Below are positions 7,524-21,457 of a stretch of 64,000 bases of DNA, one piece after another (the first letter of the stretch is position 1; each line of letters opens with the position of its first letter). Position numbers and translations under genes: made by a program. This stretch comes from an uncultured Chloroflexia bacterium (GTDB lineage: Bacteria > Chloroflexota > Limnocylindria > Limnocylindrales > CSP1-4). Location: the NCBI GenBank assembly GCA_963813535.1, contig CAWEZH010000002.1, positions 352,001-416,000 of the forward strand, in the 5' to 3' direction. The notes under the pieces are model-generated. The model saw only the letters and a list, made by a program, of their open reading frames with translations. It searched no databases and was not told the DNA's origin.

Positions 7524-7681
7524 GCGCTGGTTCTCCTCCTATCAGTCCCGGTGGTCGCCCGTCAGCCTCCCTGGGCCGATCCATCTGGGACATGGTTCGA
7601 CGCCGGCGGTCTAACGGGACCGTTCCGGCGACGGTGCGCGGGAACCTTAGCACTGGCATACGCGGGTTGCCTAGGGGTTCG

Positions 7682-9460
7682 TCAGGGCTCCACGGGTGGG
7701 TGGAGGAAGCCGCCGAACCGATCCACGAACCCCTGGAATATGCCCTGCCGGCCGTGATGCAGCGGATGGGCCGCATCCCAGCGCATCGCGTACGACAGGA
7801 CGACGTCGTTGGCGTCGAGGACCGACCCGTCGTGGAACCGGACGCCCTTCCTCAGCGTGCACGTCCAGATGATCAGGTCGTCATCGGGCGTGCAGCGTTC
7901 GGCGAGGGACGGCGAGAGTGCGGGTTCCGGCAGATCGTGGCGATAGAGCGACTCGGACAGCTGGGCGCAGACGCGCAATGCGACGTCGTCGCTCTCGTCG
8001 GCACAGAAGAGGCTGCCCGGCCGGTCGTGCTGCATGTAGACGAACTGGCTTCGGTCGCCAGGCACGACCGACATGAAGCGATCCGTCGAGGTCGCGCTCG
8101 CCTGCTTGCCCTCCACGTCCGTGCGGAAGGCGCCGGCCGAGCCGACGTGCGCCAGCGGGATCATCGGGACGTGGCGCCGCAGAAGGTCGTTCACGCCGCG
8201 ATAGCCCTTGGCGCGGGCCTTCGGATCGACCACTCGCCCGCGCTCCAGCCAACCGTGGATGTCGTCGAATCAATTCCCGAACTGCAGGCTGGCGCCCGGT
8301 CCGAAATGGCTTTCGAGCAGGAGGCTCGCGTCCGGGTACCGAGCACGCGCGCCGAGCAGGTAAAACCCGTCGAGCCGTCCGGCATCGGCCTCCGCGACCA
8401 GCTCGTCGAACGGCATCGGCTTGAGCGTGGTCGTGATGCCGAGGCGCTCCTTCAGCTGGGCCTGGAGCGCCAGGGCCGTCCCGTTCGGGTCGGGCAGATA
8501 GTCACGGGGCTCGTCGGGGAAGCTGATGGTCGAGGCGAAGCCTTCGTCGAAGCCCACCTGGGCCAGCAGGTCGCGCGCCGCCTCGGGATCCAGCTCCGGC
8601 CATCCGGCGCCGCCACAGCCGTATGGGATCGCGCAGGGCAGGAAGTGGCTGGCGACCTGGGTCCCCGGCGGGAAGCCGGCGCTCACGATGGCCGGACGGT
8701 CGATGCCGATGGCGATCGCTCGCCGAACGGTCTCGTTATCGAACGGGGCGAACCGATTGTCGAACCCGATGTACGCGACATTCATGCCCTGCCGGGGCGC
8801 GAGCGTGAGGTCGGGGTTGGCATCGACGGCCTCGATGTCCCCCGGTGCGACGACGTCGATGGCATCCACGGAACCCTCACGCAGCTTGGACAGCCGCTGG
8901 CCCGCGTCGGACTCCGCGACGAAGATGACGTCGCTGCTCCGTGCGCGATCGCCCCAGTAGTCATCGGTCCGGGTGAGGGCGACATCGCCGTTGCCGTCCC
9001 ATGCGTTCAGGCGGTACGGACCCGTGCCGTTCACCTCGGTGAGGATGCGCGGTCGCTCGGCTGTCGGGTCGATCCGCCCCTGCAGCCAGGCCGTATCGTC
9101 GATGGCCAGCGTGGGCGACGCGATCTTGGCCAGGAACGCCGGGTCGGCGTCGCACAGCTGGAACACGACCGTCTGGGCGTCCTTTGCGTGGATACGCCGC
9201 ATGGAGCCCTCATACGGGCCGTAGGCGGGATCGGCGCTGGCCGGCTCCTCGCACGGGGCCGGGCCGTCGACCGGGTAGGCCATCGGCTTGAACGGGCCGC
9301 TGCTCGGCGGCGCGCTGGGAAATGCCGCGCTGCCGCTCGGGTCGGGGAGCCGGGTGGTGTCGGGGCCGGTCGAGGGGCTCGGCCCAGCGCAGCCGACGAT
9401 CACGATGATCGCCACCATGCCGGCCGCCACCAGACGCCCGGGCCATGGTCGTCGTGACAT
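7682..9460 (-). pseudogene. Second circularly permuted DppA-like lipoprotein, interrupted by an in-frame TGA at 8270-8272
   Basis: ORFs 8270..9460 and 7682..8233 share one frame; read-through FGN*FDDI aligns to FGTPFPDI of the paralogue; lipobox IVGC; may be a sequencing error. Confidence 0.8.
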
Positions 9461-9501
9461 CGGGTCCTAGCCTAGCATCGGCTTCGCGTATGCTCGCCCG
9501 C

Positions 9502-10470
9502 ATGGACTCCGTGCGCGTGGCTCTCGCGCAGATCGCGCCGACGCTCGGTCAGCTCGATGTGAACCTCGCACGCCATCACGAGCTGATCGAGGAAGCCCGC
9601 TCGAAGGGCGCGAACCTCGTGGTCTTCCCGGAGCTCGGGCTGACCGGTTACCAGCTCCAGGACCTCGCATCGGAGGTCGCGCTGCGGCTCGACGACCCGC
9701 GACTGGCCGATCTGGCCGATGCGACCCGCGACCTGTCGGTCATCGTGTCCTTCGTCGAGGAATCGGCCGACCACCGGCTGTTCATCGCTGCCGCGTTGCT
9801 CGAGGACGGCGAGCTCCGCCACGTTCACCGCAAGGCGTTCCTGCCGACCTACGGGTTGTTCGACGAGCGCCGGTTCTTCGCCCATGGCGACATGCTCCGC
9901 GCGGTCCCCTCGAGACTCGGGCTCGGCGTCGGCATCGCCATCTGCGAGGACTTCTGGCACCTGGCCGTCCCCCAGATCCTCGCCCTGGACGGCGCCCAGA
10001 TCCTCATCAACGTGTCGTCGTCGCCCGGCCGCGACCTCGCGGCGACCAATGAGGTCGGACTCGGTACCGCGACGTCGTGGCGGACCCTGATGCGGACCTA
10101 TGCCCAATTGACCACGTCGTTCGTGATCTTCTGCAATCGCGTCGGTGTCGACGAGTCGATCTCGTTCTGGGGCGGCTCGGAGATCATCGCCCCGAACGGA
10201 GCCGCCCTCCTGTCGGCGCCGCTCTACGACGAGGGCTTGTTCGTGGCCGACATCGCGACCGCGGACATCCGCCGGGAACGCATCGGCCTGCCGCTCCTTC
10301 GCGACGAGCGCCCCGAATTCCAGGTCCGCGAACTGTCGAGGATCGTCGATGAGCGGGCGGGTCTGGCGCGTGACTCCACGAGTGACCCCGACGCCGAGGC
10401 GGGACTGGACGTGGCGGCCGGCGACCGAACCCCGCGGCCCATCGGCTTCCGTCGGAGCGCCGGCGGATGA
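9502..10470 (+). CDS. Nitrilase-family amidohydrolase, probable glutaminase subunit of NAD synthetase
   Basis: RVALAQ start, E-K-C triad (FPELGL, HRKAFLPTYGLFDERRFF, ICEDFW), coupled to nadE. Confidence 0.88.
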   Translation: MDSVRVALAQIAPTLGQLDVNLARHHELIEEARSKGANLVVFPELGLTGYQLQDLASEVALRLDDPRLADLADATRDLSVIVSFVEESADHRLFIAAALLEDGELRHVHRKAFLPTYGLFDERRFFAHGDMLRAVPSRLGLGVGIAICEDFWHLAVPQILALDGAQILINVSSSPGRDLAATNEVGLGTATSWRTLMRTYAQLTTSFVIFCNRVGVDESISFWGGSEIIAPNGAALLSAPLYDEGLFVADIATADIRRERIGLPLLRDERPEFQVRELSRIVDERAGLARDSTSDPDAEAGLDVAAGDRTPRPIGFRRSAGG

Positions 10471-11327
10471 CCGCGCCGCCGGCCTTCGAGCTGCCCACCG
10501 AGCTCGCGATCGACACGGACGTCGCGCGGCGGATCATCGGCGAGTTCATCCGTGGCCAGCTCCGGCAGGCGGGCTTCGAGCGAGCCGTCCTCGGCCTGTC
10601 CGGCGGGATCGATTCGGCGCTCGTGGCGTATCTCACCGCCGAAGCGATCGGGGCCGACCGGCTGCTGTGTGTGCTGATGCCGTACCGGACCTCAGCGCCT
10701 GCTTCCCAAGGGGATGCCGAGGAAGTCGTGCGGATGCTGGGCTGCACGTCCGAGCTGGTCGACATCACGCCGATGGTCGAGGGGTACTTCGGATCGGACA
10801 CGGAAGCCTCATCGCTCCGGCGCGGCAACTTCATGGCTCGCATGCGCATGGCGGTGCTGTACGACCGATCGGTCACCTGGGGCGGGCTGGTCGTCGGGAC
10901 GGGCAACAAGACCGAGTCCCTGATCGGCTACACGACGCTCTTCGGCGACAACGCGTGCGCCTTCAACCCGATCGGTGACCTGTACAAGAGCCAGGTCCGC
11001 CAGCTTGCCGCGGCCATCGGCGTGCCCGACGAGATCCTCCGCAAGGCGCCCTCGGCCGACCTGTGGCCCGGCCAGACCGACGAGGCCGAGTCCGGCTTCG
11101 ACTACCCGACCCTGGACCGGCTCCTGTTCTGGCGGATCGACAAGCGCCGGTCGATCGACGAGGTCGTCGCGCTCGGGTTCCCACGCGAGATGGTCGAGCG
11201 GGTCGACCGGATGGTGGCCGGTGCCGAGTTCAAGCGGCAGGTCCCGCCGATCGCCAAGCTCGGACCTCGGACCGCGGGCGTCGACTACCTGTACCCACGC
11301 CGGCGCCCGGGTTCGGCGCGCGAGTGA
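10467..11327 (+). CDS. nadE: NAD+ synthetase (synthetase subunit)
   Basis: LGLSGGIDSA, GNFMARMRM, GTGNKTE, GYTTLFGD, KAPSADLWPGQTDE. Confidence 0.96.
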   Translation: MTAPPAFELPTELAIDTDVARRIIGEFIRGQLRQAGFERAVLGLSGGIDSALVAYLTAEAIGADRLLCVLMPYRTSAPASQGDAEEVVRMLGCTSELVDITPMVEGYFGSDTEASSLRRGNFMARMRMAVLYDRSVTWGGLVVGTGNKTESLIGYTTLFGDNACAFNPIGDLYKSQVRQLAAAIGVPDEILRKAPSADLWPGQTDEAESGFDYPTLDRLLFWRIDKRRSIDEVVALGFPREMVERVDRMVAGAEFKRQVPPIAKLGPRTAGVDYLYPRRRPGSARE

Positions 11328-12187
11328 CCGCGGGCCCTGGCGGCACGCTGTACGTCGTCGCCACGCCCATCGGCAATCTGTCCGACATCACGCTCCGGGC
11401 GATCGAGGTGCTGGGTGCTGTGCCACTGATCGCCGCCGAGGACACGCGGCTGACAAAGCGGCTGCTCCAGCGACACGGGATCGACACGCGGCTCACCAGC
11501 TACCACGCTCGGAGCCCCGCCAGCCGCCTCGACGCGCTCATGGCCCACCTGCGCGCGGGCAAGGACTTGGCCCTCGTGACCGATGCCGGCACGCCCGCCG
11601 TGAGCGACCCAGGCGCCGACCTCGTGGCGGCCTGGGCCGGGGAGGACGGCAGCGTCGTGCCGATCCCGGGCGCATCGGCCGTGCTGGCGGCAGTGGCTGC
11701 GTCGGGTGTCGCAGGGCCACGCTGGGCGTTCGAAGGATTCCTGCCTCGGAGCGGGCGCGATCGGAGGGACCGGTTGGCAGCCATCGCGGGCGATCCGCGC
11801 GGGACCGTGCTGTTCGAGGCGCCCGGGCGGGCGGCCGCGACCCTGCGCGACCTGGCGACGGTCTGCGCGACCGAGCGACAGGGCGCCGTCGCGCGGGAGC
11901 TCACGAAGCTCCACGAGCAGATCGTGCGAGGCTCGTTGAGGGATCTGGCCACCGCGGCGGCCGATGGCAGGATCCCGGCCCGTGGCGAGTTCGTGCTCAT
12001 CGTCGGGATGGGCGACGTGGCCGATGCCGGCAGCCGTTCGGGCGATGCCGAAGCGGCCCTCGACGCGGCGCGCGCAGACGTCGAACGGCTCGTCTCGGAG
12101 GGGGTGGCGCGAGGCGACGCCGCGCGCAGGGTGGCAGCGCAGACAGGCCTGCCGCGTCGACGTCTGTATGGCCTGACGGACGTGTAA
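11324..12187 (+). CDS. rsmI: 16S rRNA (cytidine1402-2'-O)-methyltransferase
   Basis: LYVVATPIGNLSDITLRA, AEDTR, DAGTPAVSDPG, ARELTKLHE; GTG at 11324 overlaps nadE stop. Confidence 0.95.
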   Translation: MTAGPGGTLYVVATPIGNLSDITLRAIEVLGAVPLIAAEDTRLTKRLLQRHGIDTRLTSYHARSPASRLDALMAHLRAGKDLALVTDAGTPAVSDPGADLVAAWAGEDGSVVPIPGASAVLAAVAASGVAGPRWAFEGFLPRSGRDRRDRLAAIAGDPRGTVLFEAPGRAAATLRDLATVCATERQGAVARELTKLHEQIVRGSLRDLATAAADGRIPARGEFVLIVGMGDVADAGSRSGDAEAALDAARADVERLVSEGVARGDAARRVAAQTGLPRRRLYGLTDV

Positions 12188-12197
12188 TGTTGACCCG

Positions 12198-12899
12198 ATG
12201 ACAGCGGCCACCATGCCCCGGTCGACCTCATCGCGGATCCCCCTCTCCTACGTCGTCGCGCTGGTGCCGGTCGGCGCTGCGCTGAACGTCGTCGGGGGCA
12301 CGATCAACACCGCGCTCGGGTTGCCGACATTCCTCGACATGATCGGCACGGCCGTCGTGGCGATCCTCCTGGGACCGTGGTGGGGAGCGCTGGTCGCCGT
12401 CATGGGCAACGTGAGTGGGGCGTTCTTCACCGGACCCGTGGGGGTCCCCTTCGCGCTGGTCAACGTCGCCGGGGCCCTGGTCTGGGGCTATGGGGTGCGT
12501 TCCTTCGGCATGGGCGCCACCGCGACGCGGTTCTTCGTGCTCAATGTGATCGTCGCTCTGGTCACATCGGCCATCGCGGCACCCATCGTGGTGTTCCTGT
12601 TCGGTGGCGCGACCGGTCATTCGTCGGATGTGTTGACGGCCGCGTTCGTGCAGGCGGGTCGCAACGTGCTCGCCGCGGCGTTCGCCTCGAGCATCATCGT
12701 GTCGCTGGCCGACAAGATCATCAGCGGGTTCCTGGCCCTCGCCATCATCGATGCGCTGCCGGCCGAGATGAGCCGCGGCCTGCGCCTGCCTGGACCGACG
12801 GCTACAGGTCGCCTTGCCGTGGCGATCGGCGGCGTCGTCATCGGTGCCGCGATGGTGGCGGTGTACCTGTTCCTCACGCCCCCCGCGCCACCGGCCTGA
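12198..12899 (+). CDS. ECF transporter substrate-specific S component
   Basis: Hydrophobic multi-TM protein with LP.FLDMIGT...GPWWGA and ADKIIS motifs; precedes ECF ATPases and T component. Confidence 0.85.
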   Translation: MTAATMPRSTSSRIPLSYVVALVPVGAALNVVGGTINTALGLPTFLDMIGTAVVAILLGPWWGALVAVMGNVSGAFFTGPVGVPFALVNVAGALVWGYGVRSFGMGATATRFFVLNVIVALVTSAIAAPIVVFLFGGATGHSSDVLTAAFVQAGRNVLAAAFASSIIVSLADKIISGFLALAIIDALPAEMSRGLRLPGPTATGRLAVAIGGVVIGAAMVAVYLFLTPPAPPA

Positions 12900-13099
12900 T
12901 GGATCGGACCGTCGGACCGCGCGACGGCCTCGGCGCGGGCATCATCGCGCTCGGGATCCTTGCGATCGCGATGCCCTTCGCCGTCGACGGCCTGGTCGAC
13001 ACACCCGATCAGACCGCGCTCGTGCTTGCCGGGATGAGCGTCCTGCTCGGCATCTTCGTCGTCATCGCGGGTCTCCTCTCGTTCCGCATCCGGGACTGA
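12899..13099 (+). CDS. Small two-TM membrane protein (66 aa)
   Basis: ATG overlaps S-component stop (TGATG); two hydrophobic helices; fills the gap in the operon. Confidence 0.7.
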   Translation: MDRTVGPRDGLGAGIIALGILAIAMPFAVDGLVDTPDQTALVLAGMSVLLGIFVVIAGLLSFRIRD

Positions 13100-13121
13100 A
13101 CCCGCAGATCCGGCGATACCG

Positions 13122-13964
13122 GTGACCGACGCCCCGATCGTCTCGATCGTCGACCTGAGCGTCACGTACGCGGGAGCCGACACGCCTGCGCTCCGCGGCG
13201 TGGACCTTCGCATCGGGGCCGGAGAGGCGGTCGGCATCGTCGGCCTGAACGGGGCCGGCAAGACGACCCTGGCCCTGACTCTCAACGGGGTCGTCCCGCA
13301 GCTGCTCCCGGCGGACATCCAGGGCACGGTCGTCGTGGCGGGCAAGGATGCGACGACGACACCGGTGCGGGAGATGGCGCGGACCGTCGGCATCGTGTTC
13401 GACGATCCCGAGTTCCAGCTGAGCCAGGCGACCGTCGCCGACGAGATCGCGCTCGGCCTCGAAGGTCTGGCGGTGTCGTCCGACGAGATGCCGAGCCGCA
13501 TCGATCGCGCGTTGACGGCGGTCGGGCTCGCCGGGCTCGAGGAGCGCTCGCCGCTGGCCCTGTCGGGTGGACAGCAGCAGCGAGTGGCGATCGCCGCCGT
13601 CCTCGCGATGGAGCCGAGGGTGCTGGTCATGGACGAGCCGACGTCGCACCTGGATCCAGCGGGGACGGCCGACGTGTTCGCCATCGCCCACAGGCTCAAT
13701 CGGGACGATGGGATGACGGTCATCGTCGCCGAGCATGACGTCGAGGCCCTTGCTGGCTTCGCCGACCGGATCGTCGTGCTCGACGCCGGTCGCGTCGTGC
13801 TGCAGGGATCGCCGGCCGAGGTGTTCGGGGCGATCGACCAGCTCACGGCGCTCGGCCTGCGACCACCGCAGGTCACCGCATTCGCGCGAGCGATCGACCG
13901 GGCCGCGCAACGGCTACCGGTGACGGTGGCGGAGACCCTCGCCTGGCTGGAGTCCGGGCGATGA
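13122..13964 (+). CDS. ECF transporter ATPase A
   Basis: GLNGAGKTT, LSGGQQQR, MDEPTSHLDP, LGLRPPQVT C-terminus. Confidence 0.92.
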   Translation: MTDAPIVSIVDLSVTYAGADTPALRGVDLRIGAGEAVGIVGLNGAGKTTLALTLNGVVPQLLPADIQGTVVVAGKDATTTPVREMARTVGIVFDDPEFQLSQATVADEIALGLEGLAVSSDEMPSRIDRALTAVGLAGLEERSPLALSGGQQQRVAIAAVLAMEPRVLVMDEPTSHLDPAGTADVFAIAHRLNRDDGMTVIVAEHDVEALAGFADRIVVLDAGRVVLQGSPAEVFGAIDQLTALGLRPPQVTAFARAIDRAAQRLPVTVAETLAWLESGR

Positions 13965-14788
13965 CCGTGCACGCACCCATCGTCGCGATCGATGATCTCG
14001 GCTTCGCCTATCCCGATGGCACGGTGGCGCTCGATGCCGTGTCGCTCGCGATCGACCCGGGATCCGTCGTCGCTGTCGTGGGGCAGAACGGGTCGGGCAA
14101 GACGACACTTGCCAAGCACCTCAACGGGTTGCTGCGACCGAGCTCGGGACGGGTCGTCGTCGACGGCCTGGACACGACCGCCCATCCCGTGCGAAGCATG
14201 GCCGGCCACGTCGGGTACGTGTTCCAGAACCCGGCTCACCAGCTCTTCGCACGCACGGTCGCCGACGAGCTGGGGTTCGGTCCCCGGAACCTTGGCGTGG
14301 CGCCCGCCGAGATCGAGGCGCGCATCGCGGTGGTCGCCCGCTCCCTTGGCCTCGAGACCCACCTCGACGCGCACCCGCATCGGCTGCCATCGGCCATCCG
14401 GAAGCTCGTCAGCATCGGCTCCGTCCTGACCATGCGGACACCGGTCCTCGTCCTCGATGAGCCGACGACTGGTCAGGACCATCGAACGGCGGATCGCATC
14501 GCAGGCGTCATCCGGGACGTGCGCGCCGCGGGAACGACCGTCGTCGCCGTCTCGCACGACATGGCATTGGTCGCCGACATCGCCGACCGGGTCGTCGTCC
14601 TCGATGCCGGTCGCGTCGTCGCCGATGGGCTGCCGCGGACCGTGTTGTCGGATCGGGCACTGGCGTCATCGACGCGTCTGACGCCGCCGCAGATCACACA
14701 GCTGGCGATGGCGTTGCCTGGACGAGCGGGTCGGGAGGCCGTGCTCACCGTCGGGGAGCTGGTGGCCGAGGTCCGCGGCGCGCGATGA
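13961..14788 (+). CDS. ECF transporter ATPase A' (degenerate signature motif)
   Basis: GQNGSGKTT, VFQNPAHQLF, LDEPTTGQD; signature reads LPSAIRK. Confidence 0.9.
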   Translation: MTVHAPIVAIDDLGFAYPDGTVALDAVSLAIDPGSVVAVVGQNGSGKTTLAKHLNGLLRPSSGRVVVDGLDTTAHPVRSMAGHVGYVFQNPAHQLFARTVADELGFGPRNLGVAPAEIEARIAVVARSLGLETHLDAHPHRLPSAIRKLVSIGSVLTMRTPVLVLDEPTTGQDHRTADRIAGVIRDVRAAGTTVVAVSHDMALVADIADRVVVLDAGRVVADGLPRTVLSDRALASSTRLTPPQITQLAMALPGRAGREAVLTVGELVAEVRGAR

Positions 14789-15681
14789 CGAGTGCCATCG
14801 GGCCGGTCTTCGCCGCCGAGCGGGGGTCGTCGTGGCTCCACCGGCTCGACCCGCTGGTGAAGTTGACGTGGCTCCTGGCCGTCGTCGTCGTGGCCTTCGC
14901 CACATTCGACCCGGTCCCGCTGTACACGATGGCCGTGCTGGGCCTGCTCGTCGCGGTGAGCGCCGGTGTCGGGGCCCGAGTGGTCAGGATCCTGGCCATC
15001 TTCGTGCCCGTGACCGCGTCGATCCTCGTGATCCAGACGCTCGCGCCGACGGCCTGCGCGGGTGGCTGCACCCCGGTCGCCCAGCTCGGTCCGCTCACGC
15101 TGTACGCGGAGGGGACGATCCGCGGGCTGTCGCTGGTCGGACGACTGGTTGCGGTCGAGGCGGTGGCCCTGGCAGTCTTCCTGACCACCCACCCGAGCGA
15201 TCTCTTCGGGGCGCTCACCCGGCTGCGCGTCCCGTATGTCGTCAACCTGATGCTCTCGATGACCCTCCAGCTGGTCCCCATCCTCCAGCGCGAGTTCGCC
15301 ATCGTGCTGTCGGCACAGCGCGCCCGCGGGATGCGCGGATCCGGGTTCGCCGCGCTGCTGCCGTCGTTCGTGCCGGTCTTCGCCGGCGCGTTCCAACGGG
15401 TCCAGCAGCTCATGATCAGCCTCGAGTCGCGGGCATTCGGGTCGAGCCGGGAGCGGACGTCCTACCGGCATATCCGGACGGGTCCGCGCGAGAAGGCCGC
15501 CGCGCTGCTCGGCGTCGCGGCAGGCATCGTTGGGGCGATCGCGGGCCTGACCATCTGGAGCGCGGACCGCATGGCGGACGTGGTCGTACCCGCGCCGCTG
15601 GTCATCGGCGTGTTCGTGGTGGCCGCTACGCTGTTCGCCGGCGTGATCCTGCTCGGGATCCGGTCGATCGCTCGGGCGTAG
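14785..15681 (+). CDS. ECF transporter transmembrane T component
   Basis: SWLHRLDPLVKL, AQRARG and LESRAF coupling motifs. Confidence 0.92.
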   Translation: MTSAIGPVFAAERGSSWLHRLDPLVKLTWLLAVVVVAFATFDPVPLYTMAVLGLLVAVSAGVGARVVRILAIFVPVTASILVIQTLAPTACAGGCTPVAQLGPLTLYAEGTIRGLSLVGRLVAVEAVALAVFLTTHPSDLFGALTRLRVPYVVNLMLSMTLQLVPILQREFAIVLSAQRARGMRGSGFAALLPSFVPVFAGAFQRVQQLMISLESRAFGSSRERTSYRHIRTGPREKAAALLGVAAGIVGAIAGLTIWSADRMADVVVPAPLVIGVFVVAATLFAGVILLGIRSIARA

Positions 15682-15691
15682 GGAGGTGGCG

Positions 15692-16951
15692 ATGATGTCG
15701 GTCGAGGCGATGCCTCCGGGGCCGCTCATCGACCCTGCCGACCCGGCCTTCGTCGCCGACCCGTATCCGGCCTACGCGCGCGTGCGCGAGGCGACGCCGG
15801 TATGGCATCCGGACGGAGGGCACCTCTGGTATCTGACCCGCTTCGCCGATGTCCACGCAGCGTTCCGCGATCGGCGACTCGGCACCACGTTCCTCCATCG
15901 CTACACGCCGGACGAGCTCGGCCTGGCGCCGGACATCCCGGTCTGGCGCGACCCGCGCTGGACCGACTTCCAGTCGTTCGAGCGCTGGGAGCTGCTCAAC
16001 CTCGAACCGCCACTCCACACGCGGCTGCGCCGTCTCGTCACCGAGGCGTTCACGCCGCGCACGGTCGAGGGGCTTCGTGCCGGCACCGAGGCTCGGGCGC
16101 GCTCGCTGCTCGAGCCCGGTCGCGCCGGAGGCTCGATCGACCTCGTCGGCGACTATGCGCAGTATTTCTCGCTCGGCATCATCTGCGCGCTGATCGGCGT
16201 CCCGCCGACCGACGAGACGATGATCCTGGCGTGGTCGGATGCGACGGTCCGCATGTACGAGCCTGAACCGTCCGACGAGCAGCAAGGCCTTTCGAACGAT
16301 GCCGCCGGGTCGTTCCGCCGGTACCTGCTCGACGTCGTCGCTGACCGGCGGCACGCCCCGACCGACGACCTGCTGTCGGCTCTCGTCGACGCGTCCGTCG
16401 ACGGCGAGCGGCTGACCGACGATCAGATCGTTTCGACCGCTATGGTCCTGTTGATGGCCGGCCACGAAGCCGCCGTGAATGCCACGGCCAACGGCGTCGC
16501 GCTCCTTGCGGCGCATCCCGATCAGTGGGGGCGCATCCGCGACGGCGAGGTCACGCCACGCGCGGCCATCGAGGAGATCCTCCGGTTCGACCCCCCGCTG
16601 CAGTGGTTCGAGCGCTGGGTCCTTGACGACCGGTTCGAGGTCGCCGGCGTCCCGATCCCGCTCGGTTCGCGCGTGGCGCTGGTGCTCGCGGCCGCCAATC
16701 GCGACCCGCGCCGCCACCCCGATCCGGAGCGATTCGACGTCGCGCGGCCCGACACGACCCATCTCTCGCTCGGGGGAGGGATCCACTTCTGCATCGGCGC
16801 GCCGCTGGCACGGCTCGAGCTCGAGACGACATTGACGGAGCTCGCCCGGACCGAGGCCGAGCTGGTCGTCCAGCCACCGGCAGTACGGCGGCCGACGTTC
16901 CAGTTCCGCGGCTACGACCGGCTGGTCGTCGCGTTGTCGGAGGAGCCGTGA
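15692..16951 (+). CDS. Cytochrome P450 (CYP107-like)
   Basis: DPYPAYARVRE, EPPLHTRLRRLV, I-helix AGHEAA, EEILR (ExxR), ANRDP, heme motif LGGGIHFCIG; SD gggagg upstream. Confidence 0.95.
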   Translation: MMSVEAMPPGPLIDPADPAFVADPYPAYARVREATPVWHPDGGHLWYLTRFADVHAAFRDRRLGTTFLHRYTPDELGLAPDIPVWRDPRWTDFQSFERWELLNLEPPLHTRLRRLVTEAFTPRTVEGLRAGTEARARSLLEPGRAGGSIDLVGDYAQYFSLGIICALIGVPPTDETMILAWSDATVRMYEPEPSDEQQGLSNDAAGSFRRYLLDVVADRRHAPTDDLLSALVDASVDGERLTDDQIVSTAMVLLMAGHEAAVNATANGVALLAAHPDQWGRIRDGEVTPRAAIEEILRFDPPLQWFERWVLDDRFEVAGVPIPLGSRVALVLAAANRDPRRHPDPERFDVARPDTTHLSLGGGIHFCIGAPLARLELETTLTELARTEAELVVQPPAVRRPTFQFRGYDRLVVALSEEP

Positions 16952-17880
16952 TGGCCGCGCCGCGCATCGTCGTCGTCGGCAGCACGATGATCGACCTGGT
17001 CGCGTATGCGGACCGCCTGCCCGGCGACGGCGAGACGGTCGTCGGGACGAGCTACGAGACGGGCTTCGGCGGGAAGGGTGCGAACCAGGCCGTCATGGCC
17101 GCCCGGTTCGGGGCCGACGTCGCGATGGTCAACACGGTGGGGGACGACGGGCACGGGACGGCATACCTGGAGCGACTCGCGGCGGAGGGCATCGACACGA
17201 CCTTCATGCGCCGCGTCCCGGGATCGTCCGGCGTCGCGCCGATCTGGGTCGATGTCGACGGCACCAACCGGATCATCATCGTCCCGGGCGCGAACCGCCA
17301 GGTGCTGCCGGACGTCGCGGCCGAGGCGGTCGACGCCTTCCGGCCAGACGTCGTCATCGGCCAGTTCGAGATCCCGCAGGGGACGACGGCGGCGGGGTTC
17401 GCCGCCGCTCGCCGGATCGGTGCCGTGACCGTGCTGAACCCGGCGCCCGCGGCGTCCGTTGAGCCGCAACTGCTCGAGGTGACCGACTGGCTCGTACCCA
17501 ACGCGCCCGAGTTCGGGCTGATCGCGGGCCAGCCGCTCGATGGGTCACCCGACGAGGAGGTCGCACGGGTCCGTGCGCTCGCGGAACGGCTCGAGGTCTC
17601 GATGGTGGTGACGTTGGGCGGGCGAGGAGCACTCGTCCTGCCACGCGACGGCGAGGCATCGCTGGTCGAGGCCCGGCAGGTCCGGGCGGTCGACACGACG
17701 GGGGCCGGCGACGCGTTCCTGGGCGCCTTCGCGGTGGGCCTGGCGATGGGCCGCTACCCGGTCGCCGCAGTGCGGCTGGGATGCGCCGCGGCTGCGGACA
17801 GCGTGACTCGGCGCGGGACCCAGGCGTCCTATGCCGACCGGGCATCGGCCGCGGCGATCCTGGCCAGCACACCCGCGTAG
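16948..17880 (+). CDS. rbsK: Ribokinase/deoxyribokinase (PfkB family)
   Basis: VVGSTMIDL, GGKGANQAV, SSGVAPIWV, LNPAP, DTTGAGDAF; overlaps P450 stop. Confidence 0.88.
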   Translation: MMAAPRIVVVGSTMIDLVAYADRLPGDGETVVGTSYETGFGGKGANQAVMAARFGADVAMVNTVGDDGHGTAYLERLAAEGIDTTFMRRVPGSSGVAPIWVDVDGTNRIIIVPGANRQVLPDVAAEAVDAFRPDVVIGQFEIPQGTTAAGFAAARRIGAVTVLNPAPAASVEPQLLEVTDWLVPNAPEFGLIAGQPLDGSPDEEVARVRALAERLEVSMVVTLGGRGALVLPRDGEASLVEARQVRAVDTTGAGDAFLGAFAVGLAMGRYPVAAVRLGCAAAADSVTRRGTQASYADRASAAAILASTPA

Positions 17881-17889
17881 GATGCCGAG

Positions 17890-19020
17890 ATGACGGTCGC
17901 CGTCCCGCCCGCCCCAGCGCCGCGCGGGGGACTGCCGGTCCTCGGCCAGCTCTCGTCCATCGCCCGGATCGCGCTCGTTGCCACCCTGCTCGCAAGCCTC
18001 GTCGCGATCGTGCTGGACTTCGGGGTCCACGCCGACAAGAACCTGATCTTCATCGTCTCGGCCGGGGCGATCCTCGGTCTCGCCTGGGTGGTCGGCCTAT
18101 CGACCGAGCGGCTCGGGTCCCTCACCGGACCGCGCGTCGGCGGGATCCTCAACGCGACATTCGGCAACATCGCCGAACTGATCATCGCGTTCTTCGCGCT
18201 GCAGGCCGGCCTGATCGAGGTGGTGAAGGCCTCGCTGACCGGGTCGATCATCGGCAACCTGCTGCTCGTCCTCGGGGCCAGCATCCTGATCGGCGGGTTG
18301 CGGCATGGGACGCAGACCTTCAGCCAGCGGATCGCGTCGTCCAACGCAGCGCTGCTCGTCCTGGCGGTCATCGGGTTGTTCGTCCCGGCCGTGTTCGCCT
18401 TCACCACGAGCGACCCCGAACAGGGCACCCTGACCGAGGAATCGGTGCTCGTCGCGGTCGCGCTGATGGCCGGTTACGTCCTGTCGCTCATCTACCAGTT
18501 CACGAACCCCGAGGAGACCCTCGGTGGACATGGTGAGACCGGCGAGCACGGCGGGCCGGCGTGGACCGCCCGCATCGCGATCGTGGTCCTGGTCCTGGCG
18601 GCTGTGCTGCTCGCGGTCCTGTCCGAGATCCTGGTCGACTCGATCGAGACGTTCATCGATTCCTTCGGGCTGTCGACATTCTTCGTCGGCGTCGTGCTCG
18701 TCCCGACCATCGGCAACCTCGCCGAGCATCTCGTCGCGGTCCAGCTGGCGGCCAAGGACAAGATGGAGTTCGCGATGGCCGTGGCCTACGGCTCCAGCCT
18801 CCAGGTCGCCCTGTTCGTCGCGCCGATCCTGGTGGTCATCGGCGCCGTCATGGGCCAGCCGATGGACCTCGTGTTCACGCCGCTGGAGGTCGCGGCCGTG
18901 GCGGCGGCGGTCGGCATCAGCGCGCTGATCGCGCTCGACGGGGAATCCAACTGGCTCGAGGGCGCCCTGCTGACCCTCGTCTACATCATCCTGGCCATCT
19001 CGTTCTTCGAGGTGCGCTAG
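17890..19020 (+). CDS. cax: Calcium/proton exchanger (CaCA family)
   Basis: GGILNATFGNIAELII, GSIIGNLLLVLG, GNLAEH, GSSLQVALFVAP, DGESNWLEG. Confidence 0.93.
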   Translation: MTVAVPPAPAPRGGLPVLGQLSSIARIALVATLLASLVAIVLDFGVHADKNLIFIVSAGAILGLAWVVGLSTERLGSLTGPRVGGILNATFGNIAELIIAFFALQAGLIEVVKASLTGSIIGNLLLVLGASILIGGLRHGTQTFSQRIASSNAALLVLAVIGLFVPAVFAFTTSDPEQGTLTEESVLVAVALMAGYVLSLIYQFTNPEETLGGHGETGEHGGPAWTARIAIVVLVLAAVLLAVLSEILVDSIETFIDSFGLSTFFVGVVLVPTIGNLAEHLVAVQLAAKDKMEFAMAVAYGSSLQVALFVAPILVVIGAVMGQPMDLVFTPLEVAAVAAAVGISALIALDGESNWLEGALLTLVYIILAISFFEVR

Positions 19021-19029
19021 GCCGAAGGT

Positions 19030-19073
19030 GACGCGGCGACGACACGGGAGGGGGAACGCGTCGCCGCCGCGTC
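19030..19073. terminator. Imperfect GC-rich hairpin between convergent cax and ssb
   Basis: gacgcggcgacg ... cgtcgccgccgcgtc inverted repeat. Confidence 0.4.
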
Positions 19074-19086
19074 GGTGTGAGCCGTG

Positions 19087-19569
19087 TCAGGCCGCGGCGC
19101 CTTCCGCGTCGTCGGCCTCGGCGTCGGGGTCGTCCTCGCCGTCATCGACGATCGCCTCGGCGGATTCCGGGATGGGCTCGGTGGGTGGCGCATCGCCGAG
19201 CCGCTCGGCCTGGGCGACGAGCGACTCCGCCGCCTGCTGGGCCTCGTAATCCTTCTTGCGCCGGCCCGAGAGCATCTCGACGTGCGAGGCCACGACCTCG
19301 GTCTTCCAGTGCCGGTTGCCGCGGTCGTCGTCCCACGAGCGTGTCTGGAGCCGACCCTCGATCGCGACCTGCTGGCCCTTGCCGAGGTACGTCCCGGCGA
19401 TCTCGGCGAGGCGATCCCAGGTCACGACGTTGCTGTACTCGGCCTTCTCGCGGCCACCACCGAGGAACTCGTTGCTGGCGACGGTGAACGTGGTGACGTT
19501 CTTGCCGCTGGCGAGGCTGCGCATCTCGGGGTCGCGCGTGAGGCGACCTGTCAGGAGGACCTTGTTCAC
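19087..19569 (-). CDS. ssb: Single-stranded DNA-binding protein
   Basis: NKVLLTGRLTRDPEMR, YLGKGQQVAIEGRLQTRSW, TEVVA; acidic tail. Confidence 0.95.
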   Translation of the reverse strand: MNKVLLTGRLTRDPEMRSLASGKNVTTFTVASNEFLGGGREKAEYSNVVTWDRLAEIAGTYLGKGQQVAIEGRLQTRSWDDDRGNRHWKTEVVASHVEMLSGRRKKDYEAQQAAESLVAQAERLGDAPPTEPIPESAEAIVDDGEDDPDAEADDAEGAAA

Positions 19570-19714
19570 GGTCCGATCTCCTTCCCGGTCGGCCGGATGC
19601 TCCGGTGCCGACCCTGCGTCTACGGCGGGTCAGCCGGACGCTACCAAGGAGCGCTGCACGTCCACGTATCGGATCGTCGACCGTCGCTTACGCCGGTCGG
19701 AGCGACGTGCTCGA

Positions 19715-21457
<1,743 letters not shown>

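What the first reader, a model, noticed from the sequence alone, without database searches (positions are those of the whole stretch)
12198..17880. ECF transporter + cytochrome P450 + (deoxy)ribokinase: candidate undescribed salvage pathway for a modified nucleoside or pentose
Seen: seven tightly packed genes: S component, 66-aa membrane protein, A, A', T, P450 and ribokinase (P450 and kinase overlap by GTGA). No nucleoside hydrolase, ferredoxin or reductase is present. The kinase has GSTMIDL and SSGVAPIWV, closer to my recollection of Salmonella DeoK (GSNMVDL, SSGVAPIFV) than to E. coli RbsK (GSINADH). Established: ECF modules import micronutrients, and some bacterial P450s O-demethylate sugars (CYP236A on 6-O-methyl-galactose). 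Inference: import of a methylated or otherwise modified ribose/nucleoside, oxidative dealkylation by the P450, then phosphorylation. I know of no described operon with this combination.
Basis: partly seen in the sequence, partly recalled or inferred. Interest (0 to 1): 0.75.

Follow-up and report, generated by a model that had tools for sequence, protein, structure and literature searches.

The report
Nucleoside-salvage ECF importer with embedded P450
A freshwater/soil Chloroflexota bacterium that cannot make the tRNA micronutrient queuosine carries a vitamin-type importer and a ribose kinase that in its relatives sit among nucleoside- and queuosine-salvage genes, and a cytochrome P450 of unknown reaction travels with them.

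Summary
The seven genes are real, co-directional and translationally coupled. The organism is a Ca. Limnocylindrales (Chloroflexota) MAG. In relatives the same ECF module (S, 66-aa partner, A, A', T) is joined to uridine-phosphorylase-like genes, IUNH nucleoside hydrolases, Qng1 (queuosine-5'-phosphate glycosylase) with an MFS or QPTR transporter, TGT, and ribokinase. So a nucleoside-salvage reading is well supported. The genome has TGT with a queuine-type pocket but no QueA/C/G/H, so it must salvage queuine. The queuosine family is therefore the leading but unproven cargo; the Udp-like neighbours point equally to pyrimidine nucleosides.

Among 41 relatives, S and the P450 co-occur in 11, S alone in 2, P450 alone in 1, neither in 27. 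A paralogous P450 sits behind an IUNH hydrolase next to a Bmp-type nucleoside ABC transporter.

The P450 is nonetheless accessory: two close relatives have ECF–ribokinase without it. Its orthologues in other phyla lie in unrelated contexts, and its reaction is not shown. The kinase is an ordinary human-type ribokinase, with no evidence for DeoK. The 'methylated ribose' pathway remains one untested candidate. Interest is moderate to high.

The parts
12198..12899 (+). ECF transporter S (substrate-capture) component, 233 aa, PF12822-like / NF045596 'CD3073-family'-like
   Evidence: Orthologues at 49-95% identity lie in syntenic loci. The family is found in 58 of 301 Chloroflexota at E<=1e-10.
12899..13099 (+). 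66-aa two-helix membrane protein with no known family; predicted partner subunit of S
   Evidence: It is conserved between S and A in 13 aligned loci, with an N-terminal TVGP[RK][DE] motif. It has no Pfam family. Complex prediction supports binding: score 0.72, best control 0.00.
13122..13964 (+). EcfA ATPase
   Evidence: ABC_tran 101 bits; TIGR04520 244 bits, below cut-off 315.
13961..14788 (+). EcfA' ATPase, ATGA overlap with EcfA
   Evidence: ABC_tran 90.6 bits; TIGR04521 222.5 bits, below cut-off 330.
14785..15681 (+). EcfT transmembrane coupling component, ATGA overlap with EcfA'
   Evidence: PF02361 CbiQ 95.7 bits; junction read.
15686..16951 (+). Cytochrome P450, CYP107-like; start probably ATG 15692/15695. 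It has the heme-thiolate Cys loop, an ExxR motif, and an I-helix with Ala at the usual Thr position.
   Evidence: PF00067 79 bits. Best solved relative is 8yhn (S. avermitilis CYP107P2), 323 bits, against 222 bits for the next. Conserved motifs are in alignment A1.
16948..17880 (+). Ribokinase (pfkB family); start GTG 16948 or ATG 16951, overlapping the P450 stop
   Evidence: PF00294 201.5 bits; TIGR02152 277.5 bits, cut-off 299.65. Best PDB hits are all ribokinases. It is the only ribokinase-like gene found in the genome by tblastn; the next pfkB is 29% identical.
9445..12187 (+). Flank, same strand, probably housekeeping and not part of the module: CN-hydrolase (9445-10470), NAD synthase NadE (10467-11327), 16S rRNA 2'-O-methyltransferase RsmI (about 11345-12187; start not fixed)
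   Evidence: This flank is syntenic only within the closer relatives.
17890..19020 (+). Flank, same strand: Ca2+/H+ exchanger (CaCA), followed by a GC-rich hairpin
   Evidence: TIGR00378 317.7 bits; hairpin seen in the sequence.

Best explanation
S, the 66-aa partner, A, A' and T form a dedicated ECF importer for a nucleoside-type micronutrient. The ribokinase recycles the ribose set free when imported nucleosides are hydrolysed.

The most likely cargo is the queuosine family (queuosine or queuine). This organism keeps only TGT of the queuosine pathway, with a queuine-type pocket, so it must salvage the base. Pyrimidine or other (modified) nucleosides are a close second.

The P450 is an accessory gene inserted between T and the kinase and inherited together with the ECF in Limnocylindrales. 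It most likely oxidises the imported nucleoside, or the base or sugar released from it, so that an otherwise unusable derivative can be salvaged.

Shown: gene identities, operon anatomy, conserved neighbourhoods, the TGT-only genotype.
Inferred: the cargo, the ribose-recycling role, and every statement about the P450 reaction.
For: (1) Neighbourhoods of the P450.
- Among 53 Limnocylindria-type P450 loci, the ECF S gene is present in 30 of 38 that have at least 5 kb upstream.
- Of 34 with at least 5 kb upstream and 4 kb downstream: ECF 26, ribokinase 28, Qng1 20, Udp-like 18, MFS 16, IUNH 9, QPTR 1.
- The Udp-like genes score 266-290 bits on TIGR01718 uridine phosphorylase, cut-off 280.3.
- Qng1 (PF10343) scores 166-176 bits.

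(2) The same S family elsewhere in Chloroflexota, 12 loci.
- RK-IUNH(-IUNH) beside the ECF in 4 (L147, L151, L153, L158); L147 also has QPTR.
- Three Udp genes plus a nucleoside:H+ symporter-like MFS in L155.
- Qng1-TGT-S in L156.
- In addition, L114 has Qng1-S-small-A on one strand.

(3) Genotype, in five genomes 91-93% complete.
- TGT 5 of 5. QueA 0 of 5. QueC 0 of 5 convincing. QueG 0 of 5. QueH 0 of 5.
- Their TGTs read GGLAGDET where five QueA-positive Chloroflexota read GGLSVGE[ST]. Six Qng1-adjacent TGTs read GGSLG.
- The best PDB hits of the window genome's TGT carry Gly at that position.

(4) Co-inheritance among 41 relatives: S and orthologous P450 both present in 11, S only in 2, P450 only in 1, neither in 27.

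(5) A paralogous P450 (43-44% identity) lies directly behind an IUNH gene in 4 of 5 loci, next to a Bmp/PnrA-type ABC transporter. L099 has a Bmp-type ABC transporter followed by the P450. L100 has QPTR-P450-RK.

(6) In the quick tree, nucleoside-linked contexts occupy the basal and several major clades of this P450 family.

(7) Translational coupling of T, P450 and kinase.
Against: - The window genome itself lacks Qng1, QPTR, the MFS and an operon-linked Udp. The queuosine link therefore rests on relatives.
- The S family is not confined to queuine salvagers: 11 of 22 genomes with strong S matches have QueA.
- Udp-like neighbours argue for pyrimidine nucleosides rather than a 7-deazapurine.
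- No riboswitch was found.
- S, A and A' all score below the curated NCBIfam cut-offs.
- The P450 is dispensable. G024 (S 95% identical) and G002 have S-small-A-A'-T-RK without it. Eight of nine QPTR-type Limnocylindrus genomes lack it.
- Orthologues at 52-57% identity lie in unrelated contexts: Gemmatimonadota, Eisenbacteria and other Chloroflexota, for example purM-purN/H-P450-metG or methyltransferase-P450. Only 1 of 21 such loci has any nucleoside gene. Six of 14 of those genomes have QueA.
- No Fer4_15 ferredoxin was found in three genomes.
- Relatives are kin, so the counts are not independent.
Confidence: 0.55

Rival explanations
1. The ECF imports a methylated (for example 2'-O-methyl or N-methyl) nucleoside or methyl-pentose. 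The P450 removes the methyl group oxidatively, and the kinase phosphorylates the freed ribose.
For: - The P450 and the kinase are translationally coupled. P450-RK stays adjacent even where the transporter differs (L100) or is absent (L044, L045, L048).
- O- and N-dealkylation is standard P450 chemistry (established knowledge).
- Oxidative 2'-O-demethylation of nucleosides is a real catabolic need, met elsewhere by 2OG dioxygenases (PMC12709175, passages read).
- The I-helix has Ala where most P450s have Thr. It aligns with P450eryF, an enzyme that uses a substrate hydroxyl in catalysis (recalled). This would suit a hydroxyl-rich substrate.
Against: - There is no direct evidence for a methylated cargo.
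- RK adjacency is explained without the P450: RK-IUNH-ECF clusters without a P450 in 4 of 12 distant loci, and ECF-RK without a P450 in G024 and G002.
- Where Udp precedes the P450, the sugar product would be ribose-1-phosphate, which needs no ribokinase.
- No PhyH-type demethylase was seen occupying the P450's place in the clusters I annotated that lack the P450.
Confidence: 0.15
2. A queuosine-specific module. The ECF imports queuosine-family nucleosides. The P450 is an O2-dependent enzyme acting on the queuine side chain, for example making queuine from epoxyqueuosine or another derivative. That would make ECF-glycosidase-P450 an aerobic counterpart of the C. difficile QueK-QrtT-QueL operon.
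For: - The genome is TGT-only with a Gly-type pocket.
- Qng1 lies next to the ECF or the P450 in 20 of 34 well-flanked loci.
- Supporting arrangements: Qng1-S-small-A (L114), Qng1-TGT-S (L156), QPTR-P450-RK (L100), and P450-[Qng1, MFS]-RK without an ECF (L044, L048).
- QrtT belongs to PF12822 and clusters with Qng1/QueK (PMC11130926, passages read).
- The C. difficile operon is hydrolase + transporter + a third enzyme acting on queuine (PMC11477304, passages read).
Against: - A QueL-like product (preQ1) would be useless without QueA/QueG/QueH, none of which was found.
- P450 orthologues occur in QueA-positive Gemmatimonadota and Eisenbacteria.
- Canonical Udp-like neighbours do not fit a 7-deazapurine.
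- The S family occurs in QueA-positive genomes.
- In Limnocylindrus the gene that swaps with QPTR next to Qng1 is the MFS, not the ECF.
- Physiological epoxide reduction by a P450 is not known to me.
Confidence: 0.2
3. The P450 is a passenger. It is a conserved orphan P450 with a substrate unrelated to the transporter, lodged in this operon by chance and carried along by descent.
For: - It is lost cleanly in G024 and G002.
- Contexts are unrelated in 20 of 21 loci of other clades.
- The 39-44% relatives in other Chloroflexota families show nucleoside genes in only 1 of 9 loci.
- The closest solved enzyme, CYP107P2, binds terpenoids (PMC11214959, search listing only).
- No redox partner lies in the operon.
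Against: - The association survives several rearrangements: ECF-P450-RK, ECF-Udp-Udp-P450, RK-Udp-IUNH-[MFS, Qng1]-ECF-Udp-P450, QPTR-P450-RK, Udp-P450-MFS.
- It recurs for a paralogue with a different transporter and glycosidase.
- The P450 is kept in 1.0-1.4 Mb streamlined genomes, 8 of 16.
- It has overlapping or near-overlapping stop and start codons with its neighbours.
Confidence: 0.2
4. The ECF imports a different micronutrient, for example a nicotinamide- or other vitamin-riboside, suggested by the NAD synthase genes just upstream.
For: - CN-hydrolase and NadE lie on the same strand upstream.
- ECF systems classically carry vitamins (established knowledge).
- Udp/PNP-type enzymes and ribokinase would also serve a riboside vitamin.
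Against: - The NadE-RsmI flank is syntenic only in the closer relatives and absent from Limnocylindrus and the distant S-family loci.
- No NAD-salvage gene was seen in the clusters themselves.
Confidence: 0.07

Closest known systems
QrtT/QueT-type ECF queuosine-precursor importers with QueK and QueL (Clostridioides difficile queK-qrtT-queL operon)
   Same: - An ECF S component of the PF12822 kind.
- It is clustered in relatives with a nucleoside-cleaving enzyme, Qng1, TGT and a third enzyme.
- The host lacks de novo queuosine genes (PMC11130926 and PMC11477304, passages read).
   Different: - This is a dedicated A/A'/T module encoded with S, plus an extra 66-aa subunit.
- No preQ1 riboswitch was found.
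- The third enzyme is a P450, not the radical-SAM lyase QueL.
- The host TGT is queuine-type and QueA/G/H are missing, so a preQ1-forming step would serve nothing.
- Homology of this S to QrtT itself was not tested, because I held no QrtT sequence.
Qng1 (DUF2419)-based queuine salvage as in Sphaerobacter thermophilus and eukaryotes
   Same: - A Chloroflexota host without de novo genes.
- Qng1 lies next to the module in relatives.
- A kinase is needed to make queuosine-5'-phosphate and is still unidentified (PMC9881137, passages read).
   Different: - The window genome has no Qng1.
- In 30 other Chloroflexota Qng1 loci, ribokinase is adjacent in 0 and TGT in 6. The Qng1-kinase pairing is therefore confined to Limnocylindria.
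Nucleoside catabolic clusters: IUNH hydrolase or uridine phosphorylase plus ribokinase, with Bmp/PnrA-type ABC or NupG-type importers
   Same: Relatives combine the ECF with Udp-like, RihA-like IUNH and ribokinase genes. The kinase is a canonical ribokinase.
   Different: - The importer is an ECF system, which to my knowledge is not described for bulk nucleosides.
- A P450 is part of the operon.
CYP107P2 of Streptomyces avermitilis (PDB 8yhn) and CYP107A1 (P450eryF)
   Same: - CYP107P2 is the best solved sequence relative: 323 bits, E 2.4e-95, over residues 15-417.
- Ala follows the I-helix Glu, as in P450eryF and CYP107P2.
   Different: - CYP107P2 is an orphan studied with terpenoids (PMC11214959, listing only), and P450eryF hydroxylates a macrolide.
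- Neither is linked to nucleoside genes.
- Percent identity was not computed, so the CYP family rank is not settled.
   Same: This is a possible analogous chemistry: oxidative removal of a methyl group so that a sugar or nucleoside can enter ordinary catabolism (PMC12709175, passages read).
   Different: - No sequence relationship was tested or claimed.
- No ferredoxin or reductase is encoded beside this P450.
- No evidence exists for a methylated substrate.

Membership tests
ECF (energy-coupling factor) transporter, dedicated type | T component (CbiQ/EcfT family) encoded with two ABC ATPases | tested here: met
   PF02361 95.7 bits (GA 25). PF00005 101 and 90.6 bits (GA 25). The genes overlap as ATGA. 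The TIGR04520/04521 equivalog cut-offs are not reached: 244 against 315, and 222 against 330.
ECF (energy-coupling factor) transporter, dedicated type | Small integral-membrane S component encoded in the same operon | tested here: inconclusive
   PF12822 scores 20 bits, below GA 30.7. NF045596 scores 118 bits, below cut-off 180. Position, size and the ESM-Atlas neighbours named 'ECF transporter S component' (0.96-0.97) all agree with an S component.
QrtT/QueT queuosine-precursor S components | Physical clustering with queuosine salvage genes (TGT, Qng1, QueK) | tested here: met
   This is met in relatives only: L114 Qng1-S-small-A, L156 Qng1-TGT-S, and Qng1 within the locus in 20 of 34 well-flanked loci. 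It is not met in the window itself.
QrtT/QueT queuosine-precursor S components | preQ1 riboswitch control (as in C. difficile) | tested here: not met
   No Rfam family at gathering score in seven related loci (139,667 nt), apart from one tRNA. Nothing relevant at E<=1 in window 9000-20000.
QrtT/QueT queuosine-precursor S components | Transport of preQ1, queuine or queuosine | not testable with these tools
   This needs uptake or complementation assays.
Direct queuine salvage genotype (bacterial TGT using queuine) | TGT present; QueA, QueG/QueH and preQ0 synthesis genes absent | tested here: met
   TGT 5 of 5. QueA 0 of 5. QueC 0 of 5 convincing (two 18-19 bit hits in a 540-aa frame). QueG 0 of 5. 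QueH 0 of 5. The genomes are 91-93% complete. QueD, QueE and QueF were not searched.
Direct queuine salvage genotype (bacterial TGT using queuine) | Enlarged TGT pocket (Gly in place of the Val that blocks queuine; residue role recalled) | tested here: met
   GGLAGDET in 5 of 5 Limnocylindria, against GGLSVGE[ST] in 5 of 5 QueA-positive Chloroflexota. The best PDB matches are chains with Gly at this place.
Cytochrome P450 (heme-thiolate monooxygenase), CYP107-like | Cys-ligand loop, ExxR, I-helix acid | tested here: met
   The invariant GGGIHFC[IL]GAPLAR loop, EE[IM]LR and AGHEA are in alignment A1. PF00067 scores 79 bits.
Cytochrome P450 (heme-thiolate monooxygenase), CYP107-like | At least 40% identity to a named CYP107 member (nomenclature rule, recalled) | tested here: inconclusive
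   323 bits to CYP107P2 over 403 residues. Percent identity was not computed.
Ribokinase (TIGR02152) | Score over the curated equivalog cut-off | tested here: not met
   277.5 bits against 299.65. The Limnocylindrus orthologue scores 286.9. All 14 best solved relatives are ribokinases.
Deoxyribokinase DeoK | Specific similarity to characterised DeoK beyond ribokinase | not tested
No DeoK model appeared in the libraries searched, and I held no DeoK sequence.

The most novel reading that the evidence does not exclude
ECF-(Udp)-P450 is an oxygen-dependent queuosine-family salvage route. The P450 would convert an otherwise unusable imported derivative (for example epoxyqueuosine or a side-chain variant) into queuine for a queuine-type bacterial TGT. 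The ribokinase-like enzyme beside Qng1 in Limnocylindria would be the long-sought kinase that makes queuosine-5'-phosphate, the Qng1 substrate.
Probability: 0.12. Interest if true: 0.85.

Novelty: new variant of a known kind. Interest (0 to 1): 0.6.

Why it matters
Limnocylindria are abundant freshwater and soil Chloroflexota, and some have genomes of about 1.1 Mb. A P450 kept inside a nucleoside/queuosine salvage operon in such genomes points to an undescribed oxidative step in recycling modified nucleosides. That field is only now finding its enzymes: Qng1, QueK, QueL and the PHYHD1-type demethylases.

The locus offers four testable parts:
- an ECF importer with a new 66-aa subunit;
- a P450 whose candidate substrates form a short list;
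- bacterial TGTs with a queuine-type pocket;
- a kinase next to Qng1, where the kinase that makes queuosine-5'-phosphate is still unidentified (PMC9881137).

If the P450 proves to be a passenger, the finding reduces to an ordinary nucleoside-salvage cluster.

Tried and rejected
- **IUNH-P450 fusion in G003 (L024, 717-aa frame).** Rejected. The IUNH match changes frame at about 8805, and the P450 has its own start. They are adjacent genes.
- **P450 as a QueL analogue making preQ1.** Disfavoured. QueA, QueG and QueH were not found in 5 of 5 genomes, and the TGT pocket is queuine-type.
- **ECF and QPTR as alternative importers in Limnocylindrus.** S is in 7 genomes and Vut_1 in 9, the sets are disjoint, and together they cover 16 of 16. 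I first read this as displacement. The loci show instead that the MFS swaps with QPTR beside Qng1, and that ECF-Udp-P450 is an extra module.
- **Phyletic test of a queuosine link for S.** 11 of 22 strong-S genomes have QueA, so there is no exclusive link.
- **Phyletic test of a queuosine link for the P450.**
  - In the even phylum sample, orthologues of at least 54% identity occur in only 4 of 301 genomes, all Limnocylindrales. The test is therefore confounded by descent.
  - Distant orthologues occur with QueA in 6 of 14 genomes.
- **Ribokinase as the general neighbour of Qng1.** 0 of 30 other Chloroflexota Qng1 loci.
- **Riboswitch search.** Negative.
- **Fer4_15 ferredoxin.** None over the cut-off in 3 genomes. 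Other ferredoxin types were not searched.
- **PhyH-type demethylase replacing the P450 in P450-less clusters.** Not seen among the ORFs annotated.
- **The 39-44% P450 relatives in other Chloroflexota families.** Nucleoside genes lie nearby in 1 of 9 loci (L211), ECF A/A'/T-like genes in 1 (L210), and none in 7.
- **'CD3073' in the literature.** 0 papers.
- **The PNAS 2019 queuine-salvage paper.** Not held.
- **Careful tree search.** It did not finish in the time allowed. The quick tree is used and marked as such.

Full report
**Observation**

The window is 70% G+C. Record titles of its closest relatives name Candidatus Limnocylindrales/Limnocylindria, Chloroflexota. The genome held is 3.28 Mb in 3 contigs and 92.9% complete.

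Between 12198 and 17880 there are seven + strand genes:
- an ECF S component;
- a 66-aa two-helix protein, 12899-13099, in a different frame from the 103-aa ORF that the ORF listing shows there;
- EcfA, EcfA' and EcfT;
- a P450;
- a pfkB kinase that scores as ribokinase.

The junctions are S TGA/ATG sharing one base, two ATGA overlaps, 10-13 nt with a GGGAGG between T and the P450's likely ATG, and the P450 stop overlapping the kinase start.

The flanks lie on the same strand. Upstream are a split NAD synthetase (CN-hydrolase, NadE) and RsmI. Downstream is a Ca2+/H+ exchanger followed by a hairpin.

**Conservation**

A search of 41 related genomes found orthologous P450s (at least 54% identity) in 12:
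- G000, G019, G021 and G023 in the same genus;
- 8 of 16 genomes of a sister family with genomes of 1.0-1.4 Mb, named Limnocylindrus or Aquidulcis in record titles.

In 9 of 10 fetched orthologue regions, the ECF genes lie directly upstream.

A scan of one genome per species gave 76 loci, 74 with a P450 of at least 50% identity. I set 21 loci apart by record title and tree clade: Gemmatimonadota, Eisenbacteria, and two other Chloroflexota clades. That leaves 53 Limnocylindria-type loci.
- The ECF S gene is present in 30 of the 38 with at least 5 kb upstream.
- Of the 34 that also have at least 4 kb downstream: ECF 26, ribokinase 28, Qng1 20, Udp-like 18, MFS 16, IUNH 9, QPTR 1.
- 7 of the 53 show none of these genes; four of those are short contigs.

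**Arrangements**

- A: ECF-P450-RK. This is the window's type.
- B: ECF-Udp-Udp-P450, then MFS and Qng1 on the other strand, then RK.
- C (Limnocylindrus): RK-Udp-IUNH, MFS and Qng1 on the other strand, ECF-Udp-P450.
- D: RsmI-P450, Qng1/MFS on the other strand, RK, with no ECF.
- Single cases: QPTR-P450-RK (L100) and Udp-P450-MFS (L053).

The inserted genes were identified as follows:
- PNP_UDP_1, with 266-290 bits on the uridine phosphorylase equivalog (cut-off 280.3);
- IU_nuc_hydro;
- Q_salvage/Qng1 (166-176 bits);
- MFS_1;
- Vut_1 (185 bits).

The window genome has lost, or never had, the operon-linked Udp, Qng1, MFS and QPTR. It has five IUNH paralogues and two distant Udp-like genes elsewhere. 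The operon kinase is its only ribokinase-like gene.

**The ECF family outside Limnocylindria**

The NF045596-like S family was found in 58 of 301 Chloroflexota at E<=1e-10. Of these, 22 reach 98 bits or more, which is the window's own range.

Twelve such loci were fetched:
- Four have RK and IUNH genes beside S-T-A-A'. One of them also has QPTR.
- One has three Udp genes, the 66-aa gene and two MFS genes, one of them nucleoside:H+ symporter-like.
- One has Qng1-TGT-S.
- Six show the ECF alone.
- None has the P450.

A further locus, L114, has Qng1-S-small-A on one strand.

The ECF-ribokinase pairing is thus older and wider than the P450. It is explained by uptake of nucleosides, their hydrolysis, and phosphorylation of the ribose.

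**Queuosine**

Five genomes (G000, G021, G023, G025, G027; 91-93% complete) all have TGT. In none were these found:
- QueA;
- QueC, apart from two 18-19-bit hits in a 540-aa frame;
- QueG;
- QueH.

Their TGTs carry GGLAGDET and AFDQPV[YM]P. Five QueA-positive Chloroflexota carry GGLSVGE[ST], four of them with AFDEC. Six TGTs adjacent to Qng1 carry GGSLG.

The best PDB matches of the window genome's TGT are chains with Gly at this pocket position. That this Val-to-Gly change opens the pocket for queuine is recalled knowledge. These organisms are therefore predicted to insert salvaged queuine directly. The same is proposed for other bacteria lacking QueA and QueG/H (PMC11130926, passages read).

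Qng1 needs queuosine-5'-phosphate, and the kinase that makes it is unidentified (PMC9881137, passages read).

The link has limits:
- QueA is present in 213 of 301 Chloroflexota, and in 11 of the 22 genomes with a strong S match.
- Qng1 is present in 69 of 301. Among the 22 strong-S genomes, it occurs in 7 of the 11 without QueA and in 0 of the 11 with QueA.
- These two tallies include genomes the tool marks as unpublished: G092, G198, G226, G280, G323. They were used only as counts.
- The Udp-like and RihA-like neighbours point to pyrimidine nucleosides.
- No riboswitch was found.

I therefore rate the cargo as a nucleoside at about 0.75. Within that, the queuosine family is slightly ahead of other nucleosides.

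**The P450**

It has all the P450 signatures. Its closest solved relative by far is S. avermitilis CYP107P2, at 323 bits against 222 for the next. The residue after the I-helix Glu is Ala, aligned with P450eryF's Ala.

Evidence that it belongs functionally to the module:
- Among the 41 relatives, S and the P450 co-occur in 11, S alone in 2, P450 alone in 1, neither in 27. Kin are not independent.
- The association persists through the rearrangements listed above.
- It is kept in 8 of 16 streamlined genomes.
- A paralogous group (43-44% identity, in nine other genomes of the genus that lack the orthologous ECF-linked P450) lies directly behind an IUNH gene in 4 of 5 loci, next to a Bmp/PnrA-type ABC transporter. 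L099 has such a transporter directly upstream of an orthologue.
- In the quick tree (SH-aLRT only; the careful search was unfinished), the IUNH-linked group is basal. The Limnocylindrus clade is nested with the Eisenbacteria, Gemmatimonadota and 'pur-operon' clades (support 100). This fits an ancestral nucleoside context with later transfer and change of context.

Evidence against:
- G024 (S 95% identical) and G002 carry S-small-A-A'-T-RK with no P450.
- 8 of 9 QPTR-type Limnocylindrus genomes lack it.
- 20 of 21 loci of the other clades have unrelated neighbours: purM-purN/H-P450-metG-TatD; sigma/anti-sigma/LTXXQ-P450-GHL10; methyltransferase-P450.
- 6 of 14 of those genomes have QueA.
- 39-44% relatives in other Chloroflexota families show nucleoside genes in 1 of 9 loci.
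- No partner ferredoxin is encoded nearby, and no Fer4_15 was found in three genomes.

The reaction is not shown by anything here.

**What the P450 might do**

Three readings remain:
- Oxidative dealkylation of a methylated nucleoside or ribose. The chemistry is now documented for 2OG dioxygenases (PMC12709175), and no P450 is mentioned there.
- A reaction on the queuine side chain.
- No functional link.

A QueL-like cleavage to preQ1 is disfavoured, because the enzymes that would use preQ1-tRNA are missing.

I found no paper that links a P450 to queuosine salvage or to an ECF/ribokinase cluster:
- 0 papers;
- 1 unrelated paper;
- 16 papers, none relevant by title and abstract start.

Supplements of PMC11130926, which list candidate neighbour families, were not read and could bear on this.

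**The 66-aa protein**

It is conserved in 13 aligned loci across three families, with an N-terminal TVGP[RK][DE] motif. It has no Pfam family.

The complex prediction with S supports binding:
- The score is 0.72, with the best of 3 controls at 0.00.
- That mark was reached by 116 of 157 solved complexes and 2 of 215 mismatched pairs. Because my own alignments were used, the counts hold only roughly.
- The runs agree in at least 96% of contacts, and the partner pLDDT is at least 84.
- The predicted interface uses the invariant GPWWGA stretch of S.

This is a model, not a measurement. Its position recalls CbiN beside CbiM (recalled). I know of no solved complex like it.

**Verdict**

The salvage idea is supported, and redirected towards nucleosides and the queuosine family. 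The kinase is ordinary. The P450's membership of the module is likely (about 0.65) but its chemistry is open. This is a new variant of known salvage systems, worth bench work.

Noticed in passing
window 12899-13099; also L058:6289-6507, L155:9204-9437(-), L114:3207-3425: A conserved 62-77-aa two-helix protein with no known family lies between S and EcfA. It is predicted to bind S (score 0.72 against 0.00 for controls), so it may be a new accessory ECF subunit.
   Followed up: yes
G000:C2:690938-691981 (outside the window; L111:1441-2616, - strand): The TGT of Limnocylindria has Gly where QueA-positive Chloroflexota have Val, and Gln-Pro where they have Glu-Cys. TGTs encoded next to Qng1 in other Chloroflexota have a third motif, GGSLG.
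   Followed up: partly
L166, L167, L168 (G029, G035, G033) versus L058 (G025): In Limnocylindrus genomes the transporter gene next to Qng1 is either an MFS or a QPTR/Vut_1 gene. It is never both in the 16 genomes searched. RK-Udp lies divergently next to Qng1 in both kinds, which makes this ribokinase-like enzyme a candidate for the unidentified queuosine kinase.
   Followed up: partly
L023-L027 (G001, G003, G007, G010, G016), L211 (G133): A paralogous P450 (43-44% identical) sits directly behind an IUNH nucleoside hydrolase and next to a Bmp/PnrA-type ABC transporter. In the 41 genomes searched it was found only in genomes that lack the orthologous ECF-linked P450 (one of them, G002, still has the ECF).
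   Followed up: partly
L091:7576-8190 and L097:8127-8741: In Eisenbacteria a SAM-methyltransferase gene overlaps the start of the orthologous P450. In the quick tree these P450s nest beside the Limnocylindrus clade, which suggests transfer between phyla.
   Followed up: no
window 9445-10470 and 10467-11327: The glutamine-dependent NAD synthetase is split into separate, overlapping CN-hydrolase and NadE genes.
   Followed up: no
window 7511-9457 (+): A 648-aa ORF directly upstream of the CN-hydrolase gene has no Pfam match at E<=0.01.
   Followed up: no
window 19715-21457 (-): A GGDEF plus HD-GYP (HD_5) protein with an N-terminal membrane segment is syntenic downstream of the cluster in the closer relatives.
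   Followed up: no
L061, L069, L070, L071, L095, L100 and others: Many genes in the MFD-named MAG loci, including the P450, S, RK and CaCA, are split into two frames. This looks like indel error in the assemblies rather than pseudogenes, because unrelated neighbouring genes are split as well.
   Followed up: no
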